Virus record (IMG/VR): IMGVR_UViG_3300036857_000203
Span: 8,436-72,435 of that record
Strand: one strand, 5' to 3'
Source of the DNA: a virus
DNA length: 64,000 bases
The position numbers and the translations under genes are program-made. Position 1 is the stretch's first letter, and every line of letters begins with the position of its first letter. The notes under the pieces are model-generated. The model was not told the origin of the DNA. It did not search any database and was given only the letters and a program-made list of their open reading frames with translations. Positions 5,230 through 25,181 of the stretch are shown here, in pieces.

Positions 5230-5502
5230 TCAGTCCAGCTGCAGCTTGCTGAAGCGCGCCTCGGCCGGGTCGGGTGGCTCTGGTTTGGGAGGCTCTGGTT
5301 TGGGAGCCAGTGATGCCGGCGGCCGGGACAGAGACAGATACCTGTACAGCTCCGTATACTGGTTCGTCTGTGCCAGAGCCATCTGCTCGGCCTGTTGTCG
5401 CTGCGCTTCCATCGATCGATAGTAGGCAGCGGGGGGAGGCGGATCGCAGACGCCAAGCACGACGGGTGGCCCTCCTCCGCTCTTGCACATGTCACTTCCC
5501 AT
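5230..5502 (-). CDS. Hypothetical protein
   Basis: ORF coupled to 5492-5872; ends RFSKLQLD. Confidence 0.5.
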   Translation of the reverse strand: MGSDMCKSGGGPPVVLGVCDPPPPAAYYRSMEAQRQQAEQMALAQTNQYTELYRYLSLSRPPASLAPKPEPPKPEPPDPAEARFSKLQLD

Positions 5503-5872
5503 TGTAGCGCTGGAAGCTCTGCAGCAGCTCGCTCGACATATCCTCCAAGTCGCGCTCTAGCTTCTGGAGTTCCTCCCACCTCGCCTTTGCTTTGGCACGC
5601 TGCTCCTCTGCTTCCGCTTCGATCTGGTGGAGGAGGCCCTCCGCGCGAGTGACTTGGCGGCGCGCCGCTTCGATGGCTGCGTCGTAGAGCTTGTCAGTGA
5701 GTTCGACAAAGCGTGGTACTCCTTGGTTATGATGCAGCGGCGGCTTGTTGGGTGGGCGCGCATTGAGATCGCGGGCCACACCCTTCAGCGCCGCTTCGAC
5801 GCGGCTAATATCATGCGCCGTGTCGGCATTCGCCAGCACCTGCTTCATCGGTACCTTCTGTTGCTCGTCCAT
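5492..5872 (-). CDS. Hypothetical coiled-coil protein
   Basis: AAAGGA RBS, helical composition. Confidence 0.65.
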   Translation of the reverse strand: MDEQQKVPMKQVLANADTAHDISRVEAALKGVARDLNARPPNKPPLHHNQGVPRFVELTDKLYDAAIEAARRQVTRAEGLLHQIEAEAEEQRAKAKARWEELQKLERDLEDMSSELLQSFQRYNGK

Positions 5873-6104
5873 TGTCGTGTCCTTTCACTCGCCTAAGTCT
5901 CACATCCTTGACGATCTCGCGGCCCAGCTCGGTGATCTCCCAGCCGTCAGGGTCGGAAACCTTGCGCAGGTAGCCTCGGATCACCAGCGCACGCCACACT
6001 CCATAAGGGAAGTTGATCTTCTCCCGCGAGCTGAACGGCAGGTAGTCGACTGCCGCAGCAGCCTTCAGCACGATGCACTGTCGCCAGCTAAGCAGTACGC
6101 TCAC
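5811..6104 (-). CDS. Hypothetical protein, winged-helix-like
   Basis: WRALVIRGYL...WEITELGREIV wing motif. Confidence 0.5.
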   Translation of the reverse strand: MSVLLSWRQCIVLKAAAAVDYLPFSSREKINFPYGVWRALVIRGYLRKVSDPDGWEITELGREIVKDVRLRRVKGHDNGRATEGTDEAGAGECRHGA

Positions 6105-6537
6105 GCAGCATTGCCTCGATCTCATCACGCAGTTGCTTGCGCGTAATCCCTGGCATGATTTCTTCGATGATCACGTTGGTGATCTTCTCCGTCAGAAGGC
6201 GGAGCTGTTCGTCGCTGATTCGCGTCAGGCTCTTACCCTTGGCCTCGATCTTACGTGTGTGTGGATCGTAGATCGCTTTGCTGTAGCCGACACGCACCTT
6301 GAACGCTTCCATGGCATGATCCTTGTCGAGAAATTCGTCCGAATTGTTTGCAACAAGATGAACGAGAGCCCAAAGATACCGTAGCAACTGGATGTTCTTC
6401 TCACGTCTGATGGTGGCAGTCACATCGCTGTCCATGGAGATGATATGCAGGTCCTCTTCCGCCATTTCAGAGGACGGAAACAATCCGACCTCACCACGAT
6501 AGTGGGCACGACGCTTTCGAAGAAAGGTTTCGATCAC
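6088..6537 (-). CDS. DUF1367/NinB-like recombination-associated protein
   Basis: R.KNIQLLRYLWALVHLVANN...KVRVGY...KSL pattern; GGAGG RBS; downstream of ERF. Confidence 0.65.
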   Translation of the reverse strand: MIETFLRKRRAHYRGEVGLFPSSEMAEEDLHIISMDSDVTATIRREKNIQLLRYLWALVHLVANNSDEFLDKDHAMEAFKVRVGYSKAIYDPHTRKIEAKGKSLTRISDEQLRLLTEKITNVIIEEIMPGITRKQLRDEIEAMLRERTA

Positions 6538-6550
6538 GTCGCGCCCCTCC

Positions 6551-6631
6551 TTGCCTGCCTCACCTCGCCGAGCCAAGCCACACCGAGGCCTGTCTTGCCG
6601 TGACGAGCCAAGCCGAGCCGAGCCGCGCCAT
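6551..6631 (-). ncRNA. Orphan GGY-NN pentamer unit (putative guide RNA)
   Basis: 14 in-phase pentamers (ggcgc ggctc ggctc ggctt ggctc gtcac ggcaa gacag gcctc ggtgt ggctt ggctc ggcga ggtga) ending GGCA-GGC; intergenic. Confidence 0.75.
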
Positions 6632-6640
6632 GAACGGGCA

Positions 6641-7777
6641 TCATTGGGTGCTCGGCAACCCTCCGCCCGTATCCTCATCATCCGGCGGATTGAGCCGCAT
6701 CTCGGTGCGCTGCCATTCCGCCATCAGCATGCTCCAGTCGCTCTCATCAAAGTCGTTCTCGCGTGGGGCGACATACTGGTTCCAGAACGCCTCGGCAGCT
6801 TCCATGCTTTGCAGCTGGGCGAGTTGATTGGCGACCCAGTTCAGCGCCTCGCCTGGGTCGCTCGGCATGTTGCCGCCGCCGACCTCCGACAGGTCATTGA
6901 GCCGGCGTCCAGTCGCGGCCTGAATCATGTCGTAGGTGCCGGGGAAGTTATCGCTGATGTTCTGCAAGATCGGCTCGTTGATCGCATCCCAGGCTCTCAC
7001 CTCGTCCACCGACTGCGCCTTGCCGATGTAGCGGATGAAGGCGCTCGCCCACTCATCTGGGCCCTTGCCCTGGCCAAGCACGATGCGATGCGGCTTGCTG
7101 TCGTCTGGTGTTGTCTGCGCGGGCGCCGTCTCGGCTGGCCGCTGCGAGGGCCCCGGCACCGGAGCCTTCTCCTGACGCTGATTCGCGTCCTCGTCTACAT
7201 CGGGGAAGTCACCGGCAGGCACCTGGAACAAGGCCAGCAGGAAGTATTTGCGCGCGTTGGTGTGGCACTTGGCGACCGCCTTCTCGTCCCAGTTGCCCTT
7301 GCGATCGCGCGAGATGCACACCCCTGTGAAGCGCGGCTTCTCGGGCCATACCTCGCCCGATGAGTGGAGGATGCTGAACTCGTAGGTGACCGCGAGCCGG
7401 TTGCCCTCCAGTATCTCCTTGGAGACCTCGTTCTGGATCACGGCCAGACCAGCGGCGCCCATCAGCGGCGTCACCGCATAGAGCACGTCCTCCATGCGGG
7501 CATAGTTGTAGCCGAAGTACTCGTTCCGGCCCCGCTTCTCGATGGTATCGACCTTGGACATGACGGCGGCGATGGCGCCGGCAATGTGCCCGACCGGTGA
7601 GCGAAAGAACGGCGTTTCGCTGCGCGGAGCCACCGGGCCACCGTTGGTCTTCTGCGGGAGGGCCTGCTGCTCGCGCACGGCAATGGCGCGCTGAGCAATA
7701 CCGCCGCCGAGGCCGCCCGGGCTCGGCTCTTTAGGCGTTGGGCTTGGAACGAGGGGCCGGCGTGGGGTGGTGGTCAT
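6641..7777 (-). CDS. erf: ERF-family single-strand annealing protein
   Basis: IEKRGRNEYFGYNYARMEDV...ILHSSGE...TNARKYFLLALFQV. Confidence 0.85.
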   Translation of the reverse strand: MTTTPRRPLVPSPTPKEPSPGGLGGGIAQRAIAVREQQALPQKTNGGPVAPRSETPFFRSPVGHIAGAIAAVMSKVDTIEKRGRNEYFGYNYARMEDVLYAVTPLMGAAGLAVIQNEVSKEILEGNRLAVTYEFSILHSSGEVWPEKPRFTGVCISRDRKGNWDEKAVAKCHTNARKYFLLALFQVPAGDFPDVDEDANQRQEKAPVPGPSQRPAETAPAQTTPDDSKPHRIVLGQGKGPDEWASAFIRYIGKAQSVDEVRAWDAINEPILQNISDNFPGTYDMIQAATGRRLNDLSEVGGGNMPSDPGEALNWVANQLAQLQSMEAAEAFWNQYVAPRENDFDESDWSMLMAEWQRTEMRLNPPDDEDTGGGLPSTQ

Positions 7778-8130
7778 TGGTCATCCTTCCAATCGTCTTC
7801 CTGTTCCTTGATCCTGGCTTTCAGCGCATCAACCGCAGCCTTGTTCTCGAAATGCAGTTCTCGCATAGAGACAGTGCACTCTGTCGTGTATTCGTTAGGT
7901 TCTTGGATGTGCAAGCCGTCCTCGTAGAAGTAGAACGCGGCGTTCTTCAGGTACGTCTCGATTGCCTCGTGGATGATCTTGCGAATGAGGGAGTGAAACA
8001 GCGATTCATCGACGTTGATGTCGATCGAGTAGCGATCTTTGTCGATCGATACTGCCTTCCACAGGTCTTCGGGCCATTCACCCAGCTCCCAGGCCGTCAG
8101 GTCAACCTTGATAAGTCGCTTCTTTGTCAC
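7774..8130 (-). CDS. Hypothetical protein
   Basis: ORF with 4-bp overlaps on both sides. Confidence 0.65.
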   Translation of the reverse strand: MTKKRLIKVDLTAWELGEWPEDLWKAVSIDKDRYSIDINVDESLFHSLIRKIIHEAIETYLKNAAFYFYEDGLHIQEPNEYTTECTVSMRELHFENKAAVDALKARIKEQEDDWKDDQ

Positions 8131-9032
8131 ACGGCCCTCGCGTCCTCGATTACGGTAACTCCTGGAACCTTGGCCCCCGCACGCACCGCCCTGTTGGCGA
8201 GCATCTGCACGGTGCCCCTCACGTCTTCGCTGTCCTCGAAGAACTTCAGACAGACCGCGTAATCATCGATCCGCGCCTTCTTGGTCGACTTGAGCGTCTG
8301 GGCGCGGCCACGAGTACCAGCACGGGGACGAGGGGCATCAGCTGCAGCTGGCTCGCCCCTCGCCGCCGCTGCCTCGGCTTCCTGTTGTTGCGCCTCCGTC
8401 TGGCGCTGGAGCCAAGGCGTAGTGAGCCGGTACTTCAGGTTCTTGTAGACCTCGGCGGCAGTCTGGAGCGGCGACCACCGCGCTTGTATTCGCTTGAGTT
8501 CTTCGTCGTGGGGCTTGCGGTCGGCCTTGCGCTGCTCCTCGGCCTTCTTCCAGAGTTCCGCCAGACGATCGGCGAGGTTGGCGATCCTGTTGGCTTCGTC
8601 CTGGTCCTGGATAGGTCCGCCCTTCAGGCGCTCCTCGGCCTCGCGCGCCAGGGGCTCGATTGCGTCCCGTAATCCTTCGAAGCTCTCATCGTCGGGCGGC
8701 TGGTTGTCGCCCATAGCGACCAGTTCGTGCTCGTCCGGCCACAGCCCACCGTTCTGAGCAACCTCACGATAGGCCTGCTCGCTTACTGGGTGCTGACCGA
8801 CCCGCGTCCAGAGTTCCAGGGCGCGCTGGGGCGTCACATCATCGTCGCCAATACGACAGTGCAGCTGACCGTTCTCGTTGGGCCAGTACGCGACAGGCCG
8901 GAACGTGCGCCGCGCGCCGTAGTGCTCCTTGCGCGGCTCCCGGTAGAACCCAGCCTGTGGGTGGCTCGGGCTCATCTGCACGGGCTTGCCGTTGAGCCGG
9001 TCGTGCCAGTACTGCCATTCCCATTCAGCCAT
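8127..9032 (-). CDS. Phage protein of recombination module (coiled-coil C-terminus)
   Basis: GGAGGAG RBS; PQAGFYR...PVAYW; GDNQPP; ends VPGVTVIED. Confidence 0.75.
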   Translation of the reverse strand: MAEWEWQYWHDRLNGKPVQMSPSHPQAGFYREPRKEHYGARRTFRPVAYWPNENGQLHCRIGDDDVTPQRALELWTRVGQHPVSEQAYREVAQNGGLWPDEHELVAMGDNQPPDDESFEGLRDAIEPLAREAEERLKGGPIQDQDEANRIANLADRLAELWKKAEEQRKADRKPHDEELKRIQARWSPLQTAAEVYKNLKYRLTTPWLQRQTEAQQQEAEAAAARGEPAAADAPRPRAGTRGRAQTLKSTKKARIDDYAVCLKFFEDSEDVRGTVQMLANRAVRAGAKVPGVTVIEDARAV

Positions 9033-25116: not shown

Positions 25117-25181
25117 GGCAAGGCAAGGCGCGGCAGGGCACGGCCCGGCGATACAGGGCTGGGCCCGGCACGGCGCGCCTC
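25117..25181 (+). ncRNA. Orphan GGY-NN pentamer unit (putative guide RNA), antisense to the surrounding operon
   Basis: ggcaa ggcaa ggcgc ggcag ggcac ggccc ggcga tacag ggctg ggccc ggcac ggcgc gcctc; intergenic. Confidence 0.75.

What the first reader, a model, noticed from the sequence alone, without database searches (positions are those of the whole stretch)
6310..6631. Orphan pentamer unit beside the DUF1367-like gene encodes a foreign allele of that same gene
Seen: a single unit 9 kb from the RAMP operon ends in the same GGCA-GGC. NN series tc tc ga aa ac ga ct tt gt ga aa ga ga gc at gives S-S-D-N-T-D-L-F-V-D-K-D-D-A-M (ambiguous residues chosen to fit). The adjacent gene reads V-A-N-N-S-D-E-F-L-D-K-D-H-A-M at 6310-6354: 8/15 dinucleotides, 21/30 nt, in codon phase. 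Inference: a trans-acting guide linked to a resistant allele of its own target, like a free-standing homing endonuclease or marker-exclusion element.
Basis: partly seen in the sequence, partly recalled or inferred. Interest (0 to 1): 0.9.

Follow-up and report, generated by a model that had tools for sequence, protein, structure and literature searches.

The report
Detached VIPR guide aimed at rivals' ninB
A short five-base repeat between two recombination genes of a soil phage looks like a stand-alone guide RNA of the recently described VIPR gene-silencing system. It matches the neighbouring gene as related phages write it and matches the phage's own copy poorly.

Summary
Window 6557-6631 (minus strand) is 15 NN-GGY pentamers ending in GGC-A-GGC. 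Read with one skipped base, its NN series matches the adjacent gene at 6311-6354 at 21/30 bases and 8/15 dinucleotides, in codon phase. This is the best hit in the whole 72-kb phage (next best 18).

Of 57 distinct homologues with the site covered, 51 match better than self and 35 reach the published 0.8 threshold. The best reach 27/30 (13/15). No shuffled guide reached 27 (0 of 300, maximum 23), and only the one-base skip works.

This is the published VIPR system: a Vipr RAMP protein with GGY/NN vrRNAs that follow a 1-nt skip rule and silence dsDNA. The phage has a Cas7-like RAMP gene and a large array 8.5 kb away.

An independent relative (L020) carries a different solo guide in the same erf-ninB gap. 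That guide hits another site of the same gene family at 24/26, against 18/26 for self.

The gene is NinB/Orf-like, not DUF1367. Expression, loading and actual resistance of the own allele are untested, and the own allele's changes are not statistically concentrated in the target window.

The scan had already noted this pattern for other guides of this genome.

The parts
6553..6631 (-). Solo vrRNA-like unit B. It has 15 NN-GGY pentamers (6631 down to 6557) plus a terminal A-GGC (6556-6553). It sits in the 103-nt gap between the erf stop and the ninB-like start.
   Evidence: pentamer register, 12 of 15 perfect GGY; no Rfam family; published vrRNA definition (9-16 YNNGG repeats).
6546..6552 (-). 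Shine-Dalgarno AAGGAGG of the downstream gene, directly abutting the unit's 3' end.
   Evidence: sequence read directly.
6088..6537 (-). NinB/Orf-like recombination mediator gene (149 aa, GTG start). It is the resident, poorly matching allele of the guide's target gene.
   Evidence: phrog_319, E 6.7e-7; no Pfam family; 35 homologues, all starting at M(T)IETFL, so the longer ORF from 6681 is not conserved.
6311..6354 (-). Site in the resident gene homologous to the guide's target (residues 62-76, VANNSDEFLDKDHAM). It matches at 21/30 bases, 8/15 dinucleotides, identity 0.70.
6641..7777 (-). Erf-family single-strand annealing protein gene immediately upstream on the same strand. In unit-free relatives its end abuts or overlaps the ninB-like start.
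   Evidence: PF04404, E 5e-18; phrog_155; junction sequences in relatives.
16253..17071 (-). Vipr-like RAMP gene, the presumed protein partner of the guide.
   Evidence: AF2 model, pLDDT 88. Foldseek top hits are Csm3/Cas7 subunits, E 2.5e-5; best PDB sequence hit is 'SUSP1 Vipr protein', E 0.02 (weak); the profile finds it at E 4.3e-120.
15726..16256 (-). Partner ORF (176 aa) downstream of the RAMP gene; candidate vap.
   Evidence: ORF; no Pfam or PHROG family. Assigned by position only.
15163..15705 (-). Main GGY/NN array downstream of the RAMP operon. Its units are separated by GGC-A-GGC register shifts.
   Evidence: the legend of fig. S18 describes staggered arrays with 1-nt overlaps.

Best explanation
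Unit B is a detached ('solo') guide RNA gene of this phage's VIPR system, inserted between erf and the ninB/orf-like gene of the recombination operon and transcribed with it.

The inferred mechanism runs as follows. Vipr protomers made from the operon 8.5 kb away coat the GGY triplets. This exposes the 15 NN dinucleotides, which pair with double-stranded DNA while skipping every third base. The sequence they spell is the conserved motif (V/S)(A/S)DNTDLF(V/L)DKDDAM of the ninB/orf-like gene as related soil phages write it. During co-infection, or when meeting a resident prophage, the complex would therefore sit on the rival's early recombination operon and block its transcription.

The phage's own copy differs at five of the thirteen core dinucleotides (N, S, E, L and H in place of D, T, L, V and D). 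This drops it to 0.70 identity, below the 0.8 level used in print for real targets, so the phage would spare itself.

What is shown: the repeat anatomy, the RAMP fold, the better match to foreign alleles, the skip-rule specificity, and the replicate in L020.

What is inferred: expression, processing, loading onto Vipr, silencing, and immunity of the own allele.
For: **Anatomy**
- 15 NN-GGY units lie on the same strand as the flanking genes.
- This is within the published 9-16 repeats.

**Effector**
- The RAMP gene has a confident model (pLDDT 88).
- Its best fold matches are Cas7/Csm3 (E 2.5e-5).
- Its best PDB sequence hit is SUSP1 Vipr (E 0.02).

**Target**
- In most of the 66 homologue loci the best hit in the whole locus falls at the homologous codons. 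The exceptions seen were L011, L055, L056 and L066.
- Of 57 distinct genes with the site covered, 51 score above self, 3 equal it and 3 fall below. 35 reach >=24/30. The best are 27/30, 13/15 (L012, L013, L033, L040).
- Shuffled guides over the 283-kb loci reach at most 23; 0 of 300 reach 27.
- Skip lengths of 0, 2 and 3 give at most 20, 19 and 19, against 27 for skip 1.

**Self**
- No self hit reaches 0.8 for any of the 9 units parsed. This agrees with the published control.

**Replicate**
- L020 (62% identical gene) has a 13-NN solo unit in the same gap.
- It matches a different site (GEVGLFPNNPMA) of other relatives at 24/26, against 18/26 for self.
- 45 of 59 other genes score above self. 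0 of 300 shuffles reach 24.

**Insertion**
- In 8 unit-free relatives shown (L001, L014, L015, L017, L021, L022, L033, L040) erf runs up to or into the ninB start.
- This phage, L020 and L018 carry pentamer units there.

**Rivals lack the weapon**
- 0 of 9 related viral records (7 at least 90% complete) have a Vipr homologue. The positive control on the own genome gave E 4e-120.

**Published parallel**
- Self-match scores lower than non-self scores are reported for SUSP1-family solo vrRNAs (section read).
Against: - There is no evidence of expression. No RNA run holds the stretch, and no sigma-70-like promoter was found in 5400-9400.
- No conserved 3' tail is visible. The unit runs straight into the ribosome-binding site, unlike the type II vrRNAs described in print.
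- No perfect target was found. The best is 13/15 dinucleotides, and the two NN at the vrRNA 3' end match no relative fully.
- An exact 10-NN motif search found nothing in IMG/VR. It found only 3 chance-level hits in genome contigs, each 22/30 overall.
- The own allele's departures from family consensus are not concentrated in the target window (Fisher one-sided p 0.35-0.53). Escape evolution is therefore not demonstrated.
- How many mismatches this VIPR type tolerates is unknown. No passage on mismatch tolerance was found in the structural paper.
- L018 and L021 carry arrays near ninB that do not match ninB at >=20/22, so the guide-target linkage is not universal.
Confidence: 0.75

Rival explanations
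1. Autoregulation. The guide acts on the phage's own ninB-like gene or early operon through the partial 21/30 match, tuning recombination-gene expression rather than attacking rivals.
For: The self site is the best hit in the phage's own genome and lies only 200 nt away on the same operon. Mismatch tolerance of this VIPR type is unknown.
Against: - Foreign alleles match much better: 51 of 57 score above self, up to 27/30.
- A guide selected for self-regulation should match self best.
- Published work reports that perturbing NN pairing abolished silencing.
- Published work also found no natural self hits at >=80%.
- The L020 replicate shows the same self-poor pattern.
Confidence: 0.08
2. Relic or non-functional fragment. 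The unit is a stray piece of a vrRNA array left by recombination at a junction prone to insertions. It is no longer expressed or loaded.
For: - No promoter, tail or RNA evidence was found.
- The erf-ninB junction holds varied insertions in relatives: a small ORF in L012, L013 and L019, and arrays in L018.
- The two 3'-terminal NN match no known allele.
Against: - GGY conformity (12 of 15 perfect, 3 off by one base) resembles that of the main array.
- The unit keeps 13 contiguous matching dinucleotides to extant alleles. This would decay in a relic, because NN positions are otherwise hypervariable.
- An identical 598-nt contig covering the gene and the unit occurs in a second soil study (run X2).
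Confidence: 0.12
3. Chance. The NN series resembles the gene only because both are rich in GA/AA dinucleotides.
For: Composition does inflate scores. 5 of 1000 order-shuffled guides reach 21 inside the adjacent gene, and 36 of 1000 reach it somewhere in the genome.
Against: - 27/30 in relatives was never reached by shuffles (0 of 300, maximum 23).
- The hits fall at the homologous codons in most loci.
- Only the 1-nt skip works.
- An independent guide in L020 shows the same behaviour.
Confidence: 0.02

Closest known systems
VIPR systems (Vipr RAMP + vap + GGY/NN vrRNA; bioRxiv 10.64898/2026.04.26.720920, Results and parts of Methods read; 10.64898/2026.04.26.720927, abstract and outline read)
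   Same: - GGY/NN pentamer guide with a unit count inside the published 9-16 range.
- 1-nt skip rule with the skipped base on the codon wobble position.
- A phage-borne RAMP gene with a small partner gene and a downstream array.
- The predicted target is a competing phage.
- No self hit at >=0.8.
   Different: - The guide lies 8.5 kb from the vipr operon, inside an unrelated (recombination) operon.
- No recognisable 3' tail. The array is of the register-shifting kind; the paper's fig. S18 legend mentions 'staggered' arrays, but its figures and supplementary data could not be seen.
- The Vipr is only weakly similar in sequence to SUSP1 Vipr (E 0.02).
- The host is unknown (soil metagenome).
Solo/orphan vrRNAs of SUSP1-family phages and F5 satellites (bioRxiv 10.64898/2026.10.15.759431; abstract, sections 8 and 17 and term passages read)
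   Same: A stand-alone vrRNA away from a full array. Its self-match score is lower than its match to relatives, which the paper reads as avoidance of autoimmunity. The role is inter-phage conflict.
   Different: - The published phage cases are VIPR-null phages with the solo guide at the deleted vipr-vap1 site. They target vipr, other vrRNAs, satellites or host REP elements.
- Here the phage keeps its own Vipr.
- Here the guide sits beside the gene whose foreign alleles it targets. In that paper's main text I found no occurrence of 'allele', 'homing', 'own copy' or 'NinB'.
Free-standing homing endonucleases / marker exclusion in phages (recalled general knowledge, not from a call)
   Same: The genetic logic is shared. 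A sequence-specific agent is encoded next to an insensitive allele of the gene whose sensitive alleles it attacks in relatives, so agent and immunity are inherited together.
   Different: No nuclease is evident, no cleavage or gene conversion is shown, and VIPR type II is described as a transcriptional silencer. The agent is an RNA that needs a protein encoded 8.5 kb away.

Membership tests
VIPR system (vrRNA guide) | Tandem YNNGG / GGY-NN pentamers, 9-16 per guide, with constant GGY and variable NN | tested here: met
   15 units. 12 have a perfect GGY and 3 are off by one base. Definition.
VIPR system (vrRNA guide) | A Vipr RAMP protein (RRM core, G-rich loop, thumb) encoded in the same element | tested here: met
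   - AF2 model, pLDDT 88.
- Foldseek top hits are Csm3/Cas7 at E 2.5e-5, probability 1.0, but TM only 0.33-0.49.
- PDB sequence hit to SUSP1 Vipr at E 0.02, weak.
- The G-loop and thumb were not inspected residue by residue.
VIPR system (vrRNA guide) | Target recognised by the 1-nt skip rule, with skip bases on wobble positions of a coding sequence | tested here: met
   Skip 1 gives 27/30 in relatives; skips 0, 2 and 3 give 20, 19 and 19. The match is in codon phase. This is a computational test only.
VIPR system (vrRNA guide) | Natural target at >=80% NN match and no self hit at >=80% | tested here: met
   35 of 57 homologues reach >=24/30, while self is 0.70. The best self hits of the 9 parsed units are 0.64-0.77. 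Threshold.
VIPR system (vrRNA guide) | Invariable structured 3' tail after the repeat tract (type II) | tested here: not met
   The unit ends in GGC-A-GGC and runs into the ribosome-binding site 1 nt later. The paper says array architectures differ among its seven types, so this counts against type II only, not against VIPR.
VIPR system (vrRNA guide) | The RNA is expressed, processed and co-purifies with Vipr; silencing of the target | not testable with these tools
   No RNA run was listed.
VIPR system (vrRNA guide) | vap accessory gene next to vipr | tested here: inconclusive
   A 176-aa ORF follows the RAMP gene but matches no Pfam or PHROG family.
   hmmscan against Pfam at E <= 10 lists only two unrelated weak hits. 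PHROGs assigns NinB/Orf.
Free-standing homing endonuclease / marker exclusion | A site-specific nuclease gene and cleavage-driven gene conversion | not tested
   No nuclease was identified next to the unit among the ORFs scanned. The comparison is one of genetic logic only.

The most novel reading that the evidence does not exclude
The guide and the mismatched allele 200 nt away form a linked 'poison-antidote' cassette at a recombination-prone junction (erf-ninB).
- Tight linkage keeps recombination with sensitive relatives from creating a self-targeting genome.
- It also lets guide and immune allele spread together among related phages, a gene-drive-like form of marker exclusion run by an RNA guide instead of a nuclease.
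- Two different guides, in this phage and in L020, sit at the same junction and aim at two different sites of the same gene family. This would then mark ninB as a recurrent battleground.
- It would also hint that guides arise or land preferentially beside their targets.
Probability: 0.25. Interest if true: 0.8.

Novelty: new variant of a known kind. Interest (0 to 1): 0.6.

Why it matters
VIPR was described only in 2026 and mainly in enterobacterial and Pseudomonas phages. This case adds several things:
- A soil-phage VIPR keeps its own effector yet scatters single guides into other operons.
- Such a guide is placed directly beside the phage's own, poorly matching copy of the gene it attacks in relatives.
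- An independent relative repeats the arrangement with another guide against another site of the same gene.

If the linkage is functional, it gives a simple way to predict self/non-self discrimination and targets of orphan guides: look at the neighbour gene. It would also connect RNA-guided silencing to the selfish-element logic known from homing endonucleases.

It also offers natural matched pairs of sensitive (27/30) and insensitive (21/30) sites for measuring the mismatch tolerance of the noncontiguous code.

Tried and rejected
- **Rfam and tRNA scans.** Rfam at gathering thresholds over the window found no family. ARAGORN found no tRNA.
- **Phage database searches.** blastn 'distant' of 5800-7800 and tblastn of the gene against the phage collection both found nothing.
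- **Single-protein search.** The search for related loci in viral contigs with one protein found no relative. The alignment-based scans worked. The genome-contig scan found none.
- **Unbiased motif searches.** An exact ten-dinucleotide motif gave 0 hits in viral contigs. It gave 3 hits in genome contigs from unrelated taxa that do not extend, 22/30 each. These were treated as chance: roughly one hit is expected for 20 fixed bases in 596 Gb (my own arithmetic).
- **Escape test.** The own allele's departures from conserved columns are not enriched in residues 62-76 (Fisher p 0.35-0.53). I therefore do not claim demonstrated escape evolution.
- **Promoter scan.** There are no sigma-70-like sites in 5400-9400. 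This is a consensus scan only.
- **Expression.** No RNA holder was listed. The contigs laid were DNA only.
- **Arrays in other relatives.** The arrays of L018 and L021 have no 11-NN window at >=20/22 in any fetched locus or in this window.
- **My first reading.** I first read the unit as a generic protein-binding repeat and the coding match as probably chance. I abandoned this after reading the VIPR paper and scoring the homologues.
- **Literature.**
  - 'vrRNA' with 'allele' found 0 papers.
  - In the October 2026 paper, 'allele', 'homing', 'own copy', 'NinB' and 'superinfection' occur 0 times.
  - 'mismatch', 'tolera', 'seed' and 'minimum' occur 0 times in the structural paper's main text.
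Data S3/S4 and figs. S17-S18 of the first paper, and Supplementary Fig. 3 of the October paper, may already cover this phage family, this array type or guide-neighbour linkage.

Full report
**What is there**

The window is 64 kb of a 72,435-bp virus record. Between the stop of an Erf-family annealing-protein gene (6641-7777, minus; PF04404 E 5e-18) and the GTG start of a 149-aa gene (6088-6537, minus) lies a 103-nt gap. On the minus strand this gap reads 15 consecutive NN-GGY pentamers (6631 to 6557). They are followed by A-GGC, then AAGGAGG, then the start codon eight bases later. Twelve triplets are perfect GGY and three are off by one base.

The same five-base repeat fills 15163-15705, directly downstream of a two-gene operon on the same strand. 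A short run on the plus strand lies at about 25117-25176. Rfam and ARAGORN find nothing in the window.

**The gene next door**

Pfam gives no family for 6088-6537, not even at E <= 10. PHROGs assigns phrog_319, NinB/Orf homologous-recombination mediator (E 6.7e-7).

With an exonuclease-like gene (8127-9095, phrog_10477) and erf upstream, this is the phage's recombination module. All 35 homologues found start at M(T)IETFL, so the longer in-frame ORF that runs through the repeat (from 6681) is not the gene.

**The observation**

Its match to 6311-6354 is 21/30 bases and 8/15 dinucleotides, with the skipped base on the third codon position. It is the best 1-nt-skip hit in the whole phage genome; the next best is 18.

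Order-shuffled guides reach 21 somewhere in the genome in 36 of 1000 trials. They reach it inside the adjacent gene in 5 of 1000. The self match is thus modestly significant by itself.

**What kind of thing it is**

VIPR systems consist of three parts:
- a phage-borne RAMP protein (Vipr);
- an accessory gene (vap);
- vrRNAs made of 9-16 YNNGG repeats.

Only the NN bases pair with double-stranded DNA, skipping one base per unit. The skipped base usually falls on the wobble position, and the outcome is transcriptional silencing of competing mobile elements. A companion paper (abstract only) gives the structural basis.

I checked that the effector is present. The 272-aa ORF at 16253-17071 gives a confident model (pLDDT 88). 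Its best PDB fold matches are Cas7-family Csm3 subunits (E 2.5e-5, probability 1.0, TM 0.33-0.49). Its best PDB sequence match is 'SUSP1 Vipr protein', though weakly (E 0.02). The partner ORF (15726-16256) has no family.

**The decisive test: relatives**

Alignment-based scans fetched 11 viral and 55 metagenome loci encoding homologues. Genome contigs gave none.

I scored unit B's NN series over each whole locus on both strands. In most loci the best hit falls at the homologous codons. The exceptions seen were L011, L055, L056 and L066.

After mapping the site by protein alignment and removing identical genes, 57 distinct genes cover the site:
- 51 score above the resident allele, 3 equal it and 3 fall below.
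- 35 reach 24/30, the 0.8 identity used in print as the target threshold.
- The best reach 27/30, 13 of 15 dinucleotides. They are L012 and L013 (79% protein identity) plus L033 and L040.
- All 11 relatives with at least 60% identity score 23-27.

Two controls agree. Over the 283 kb of loci, 0 of 300 order-shuffled guides reach 27 (maximum 23). Skips of 0, 2 or 3 bases give at most 20, 19 and 19.

The guide spells (V/S)(A/S)DNTDLF(V/L)DKDDAM, whereas the resident gene reads VANNSDEFLDKDHAM.

L012 and L013 have no pentamer run in the fetched flanks. None of 9 related viral records, 7 of them at least 90% complete, has a Vipr homologue. The same profile finds the phage's own gene at E 4e-120.

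**A replicate**

Three relatives carry pentamer runs.

L020 (62% identical gene) has a single 13-NN unit in the very same erf-ninB gap. Its NN series matches a different conserved site of the family, GEVGLFPNNPMA. The score is 24/26 in L030, L050, L053, L054 and L066, against only 18/26 (0.69) in its own gene. Of 59 other distinct genes, 45 score above self and 27 reach 0.8. No shuffle reaches 24 (0 of 300, maximum 20).

The arrays of L018 and L021 show no such match, so the arrangement is recurrent but not universal.

**Insertion site**

In the 8 unit-free relatives shown (L001, L014, L015, L017, L021, L022, L033, L040), erf runs up to or into the ninB start; in L015, for instance, the stop and start share ATGA. 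L012, L013 and L019 hold a small extra ORF at the junction. This phage, L020 and L018 hold pentamer units there. The junction thus collects accessory insertions.

**Against, or open**
- No expression data exist: no RNA holder is listed, and no promoter consensus was found.
- There is no 3' tail of the type II kind.
- No perfect target is known. The two NN at the vrRNA 3' end fit no relative fully.
- The exact ten-dinucleotide motif is absent from IMG/VR. It occurs three times in genome contigs from unrelated taxa without extending.
- The resident allele's departures from family consensus are not enriched in the target window (p 0.35-0.53). I can say that the own copy is a poor match, but not that it evolved to escape.
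- The mismatch tolerance of this VIPR type is unknown.

**Other units of this phage**

In my parse of 9 units, no self hit reaches 0.8. Three units have an above-chance partial self match close by:
- 15641-15705 matches inside the RAMP gene (0.77; 3 of 200 shuffles).
- 15163-15247 matches at 14691-14740 (0.68; 1 of 200).
- Unit B matches at 6311-6354 (0.70; 2 of 200).

This agrees with earlier notes of the scan, which saw guides beside poorly matching copies of their targets in this genome.

**Comparison with the known**

It works like, and by the tested features belongs to, VIPR. It differs from the published cases in three ways:
- The solo guide lies 8.5 kb from an intact vipr operon, inside another operon.
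- It lacks the type II tail.
- It sits next to the resident allele of its own target gene.

The October 2026 paper (abstract, sections 8 and 17, and term passages read) already reports solo vrRNAs and lower self than non-self scores. Those cases are VIPR-null enterobacterial phages aiming at vipr, vrRNAs or satellites. I found no mention of guide-neighbour linkage in its main text, and no paper combines 'vrRNA' and 'allele'. The supplements could not be seen.

The homing-endonuclease comparison is an analogy of linkage logic only.

**Verdict**

This is a new variant within a known, very recent kind. The scan had already found the same pattern for other guides of this genome. Interest is 0.6.

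Noticed in passing
window 5864-7777 (runs X1 and X3): The same soil samples hold a co-occurring relative: a 68,308-nt contig in X3 and a 4,666-nt contig in X1. It aligns at about 84% in 5864-6234 and 6707-7777. Between 6234 and 6707 (the 5' part of ninB, unit B and the end of erf) it is diverged and 141 nt shorter. It may be a unit-free competitor living alongside this phage.
   Followed up: partly
window 6105-6702 (run X2): A 598-nt contig from a different soil study is identical over the gene plus unit B. The guide and the resident allele therefore occur together in a second data set.
   Followed up: no
L012 1440-1640, L013 2800-3000, L019 2800-3000: These relatives carry a small ORF of roughly 55 codons (beginning MKRRAAIYRL... 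or MKKKAAIVRL...) at the erf-ninB junction, where this phage carries the guide. Its function is unknown.
   Followed up: no
L018 632-836 and 1952-2279; L021 4-467: These are long GGY/NN arrays whose units end in GGC-AG-GGC-AG-GG(T/C)T, a different terminus from this phage's GGC-A-GGC. In L018 one array abuts the ninB start. No target was found among the fetched loci.
   Followed up: partly
window 14691-14740 and 16737-16774: These are partial self matches (0.68 and 0.77) of array units 15163-15247 and 15641-15705. Each lies within about 1.1 kb of its guide. The second is inside the RAMP gene.
   Followed up: partly
protein P0005 (alignment A1): This is the only homologue sharing the resident HLVANNSD block. 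It differs again at the two other mismatch positions (M for E, S-D for D-H). This may be a second poorly matching allele lineage. Its DNA was not obtainable.
   Followed up: no
L068 4801-4845 (minus): The chance-level motif hit in a Campylobacterales MAG translates to ...SDLFVDKDEAM, reminiscent of the NinB-like motif. Whether it is a distant homologue was not checked.
   Followed up: no
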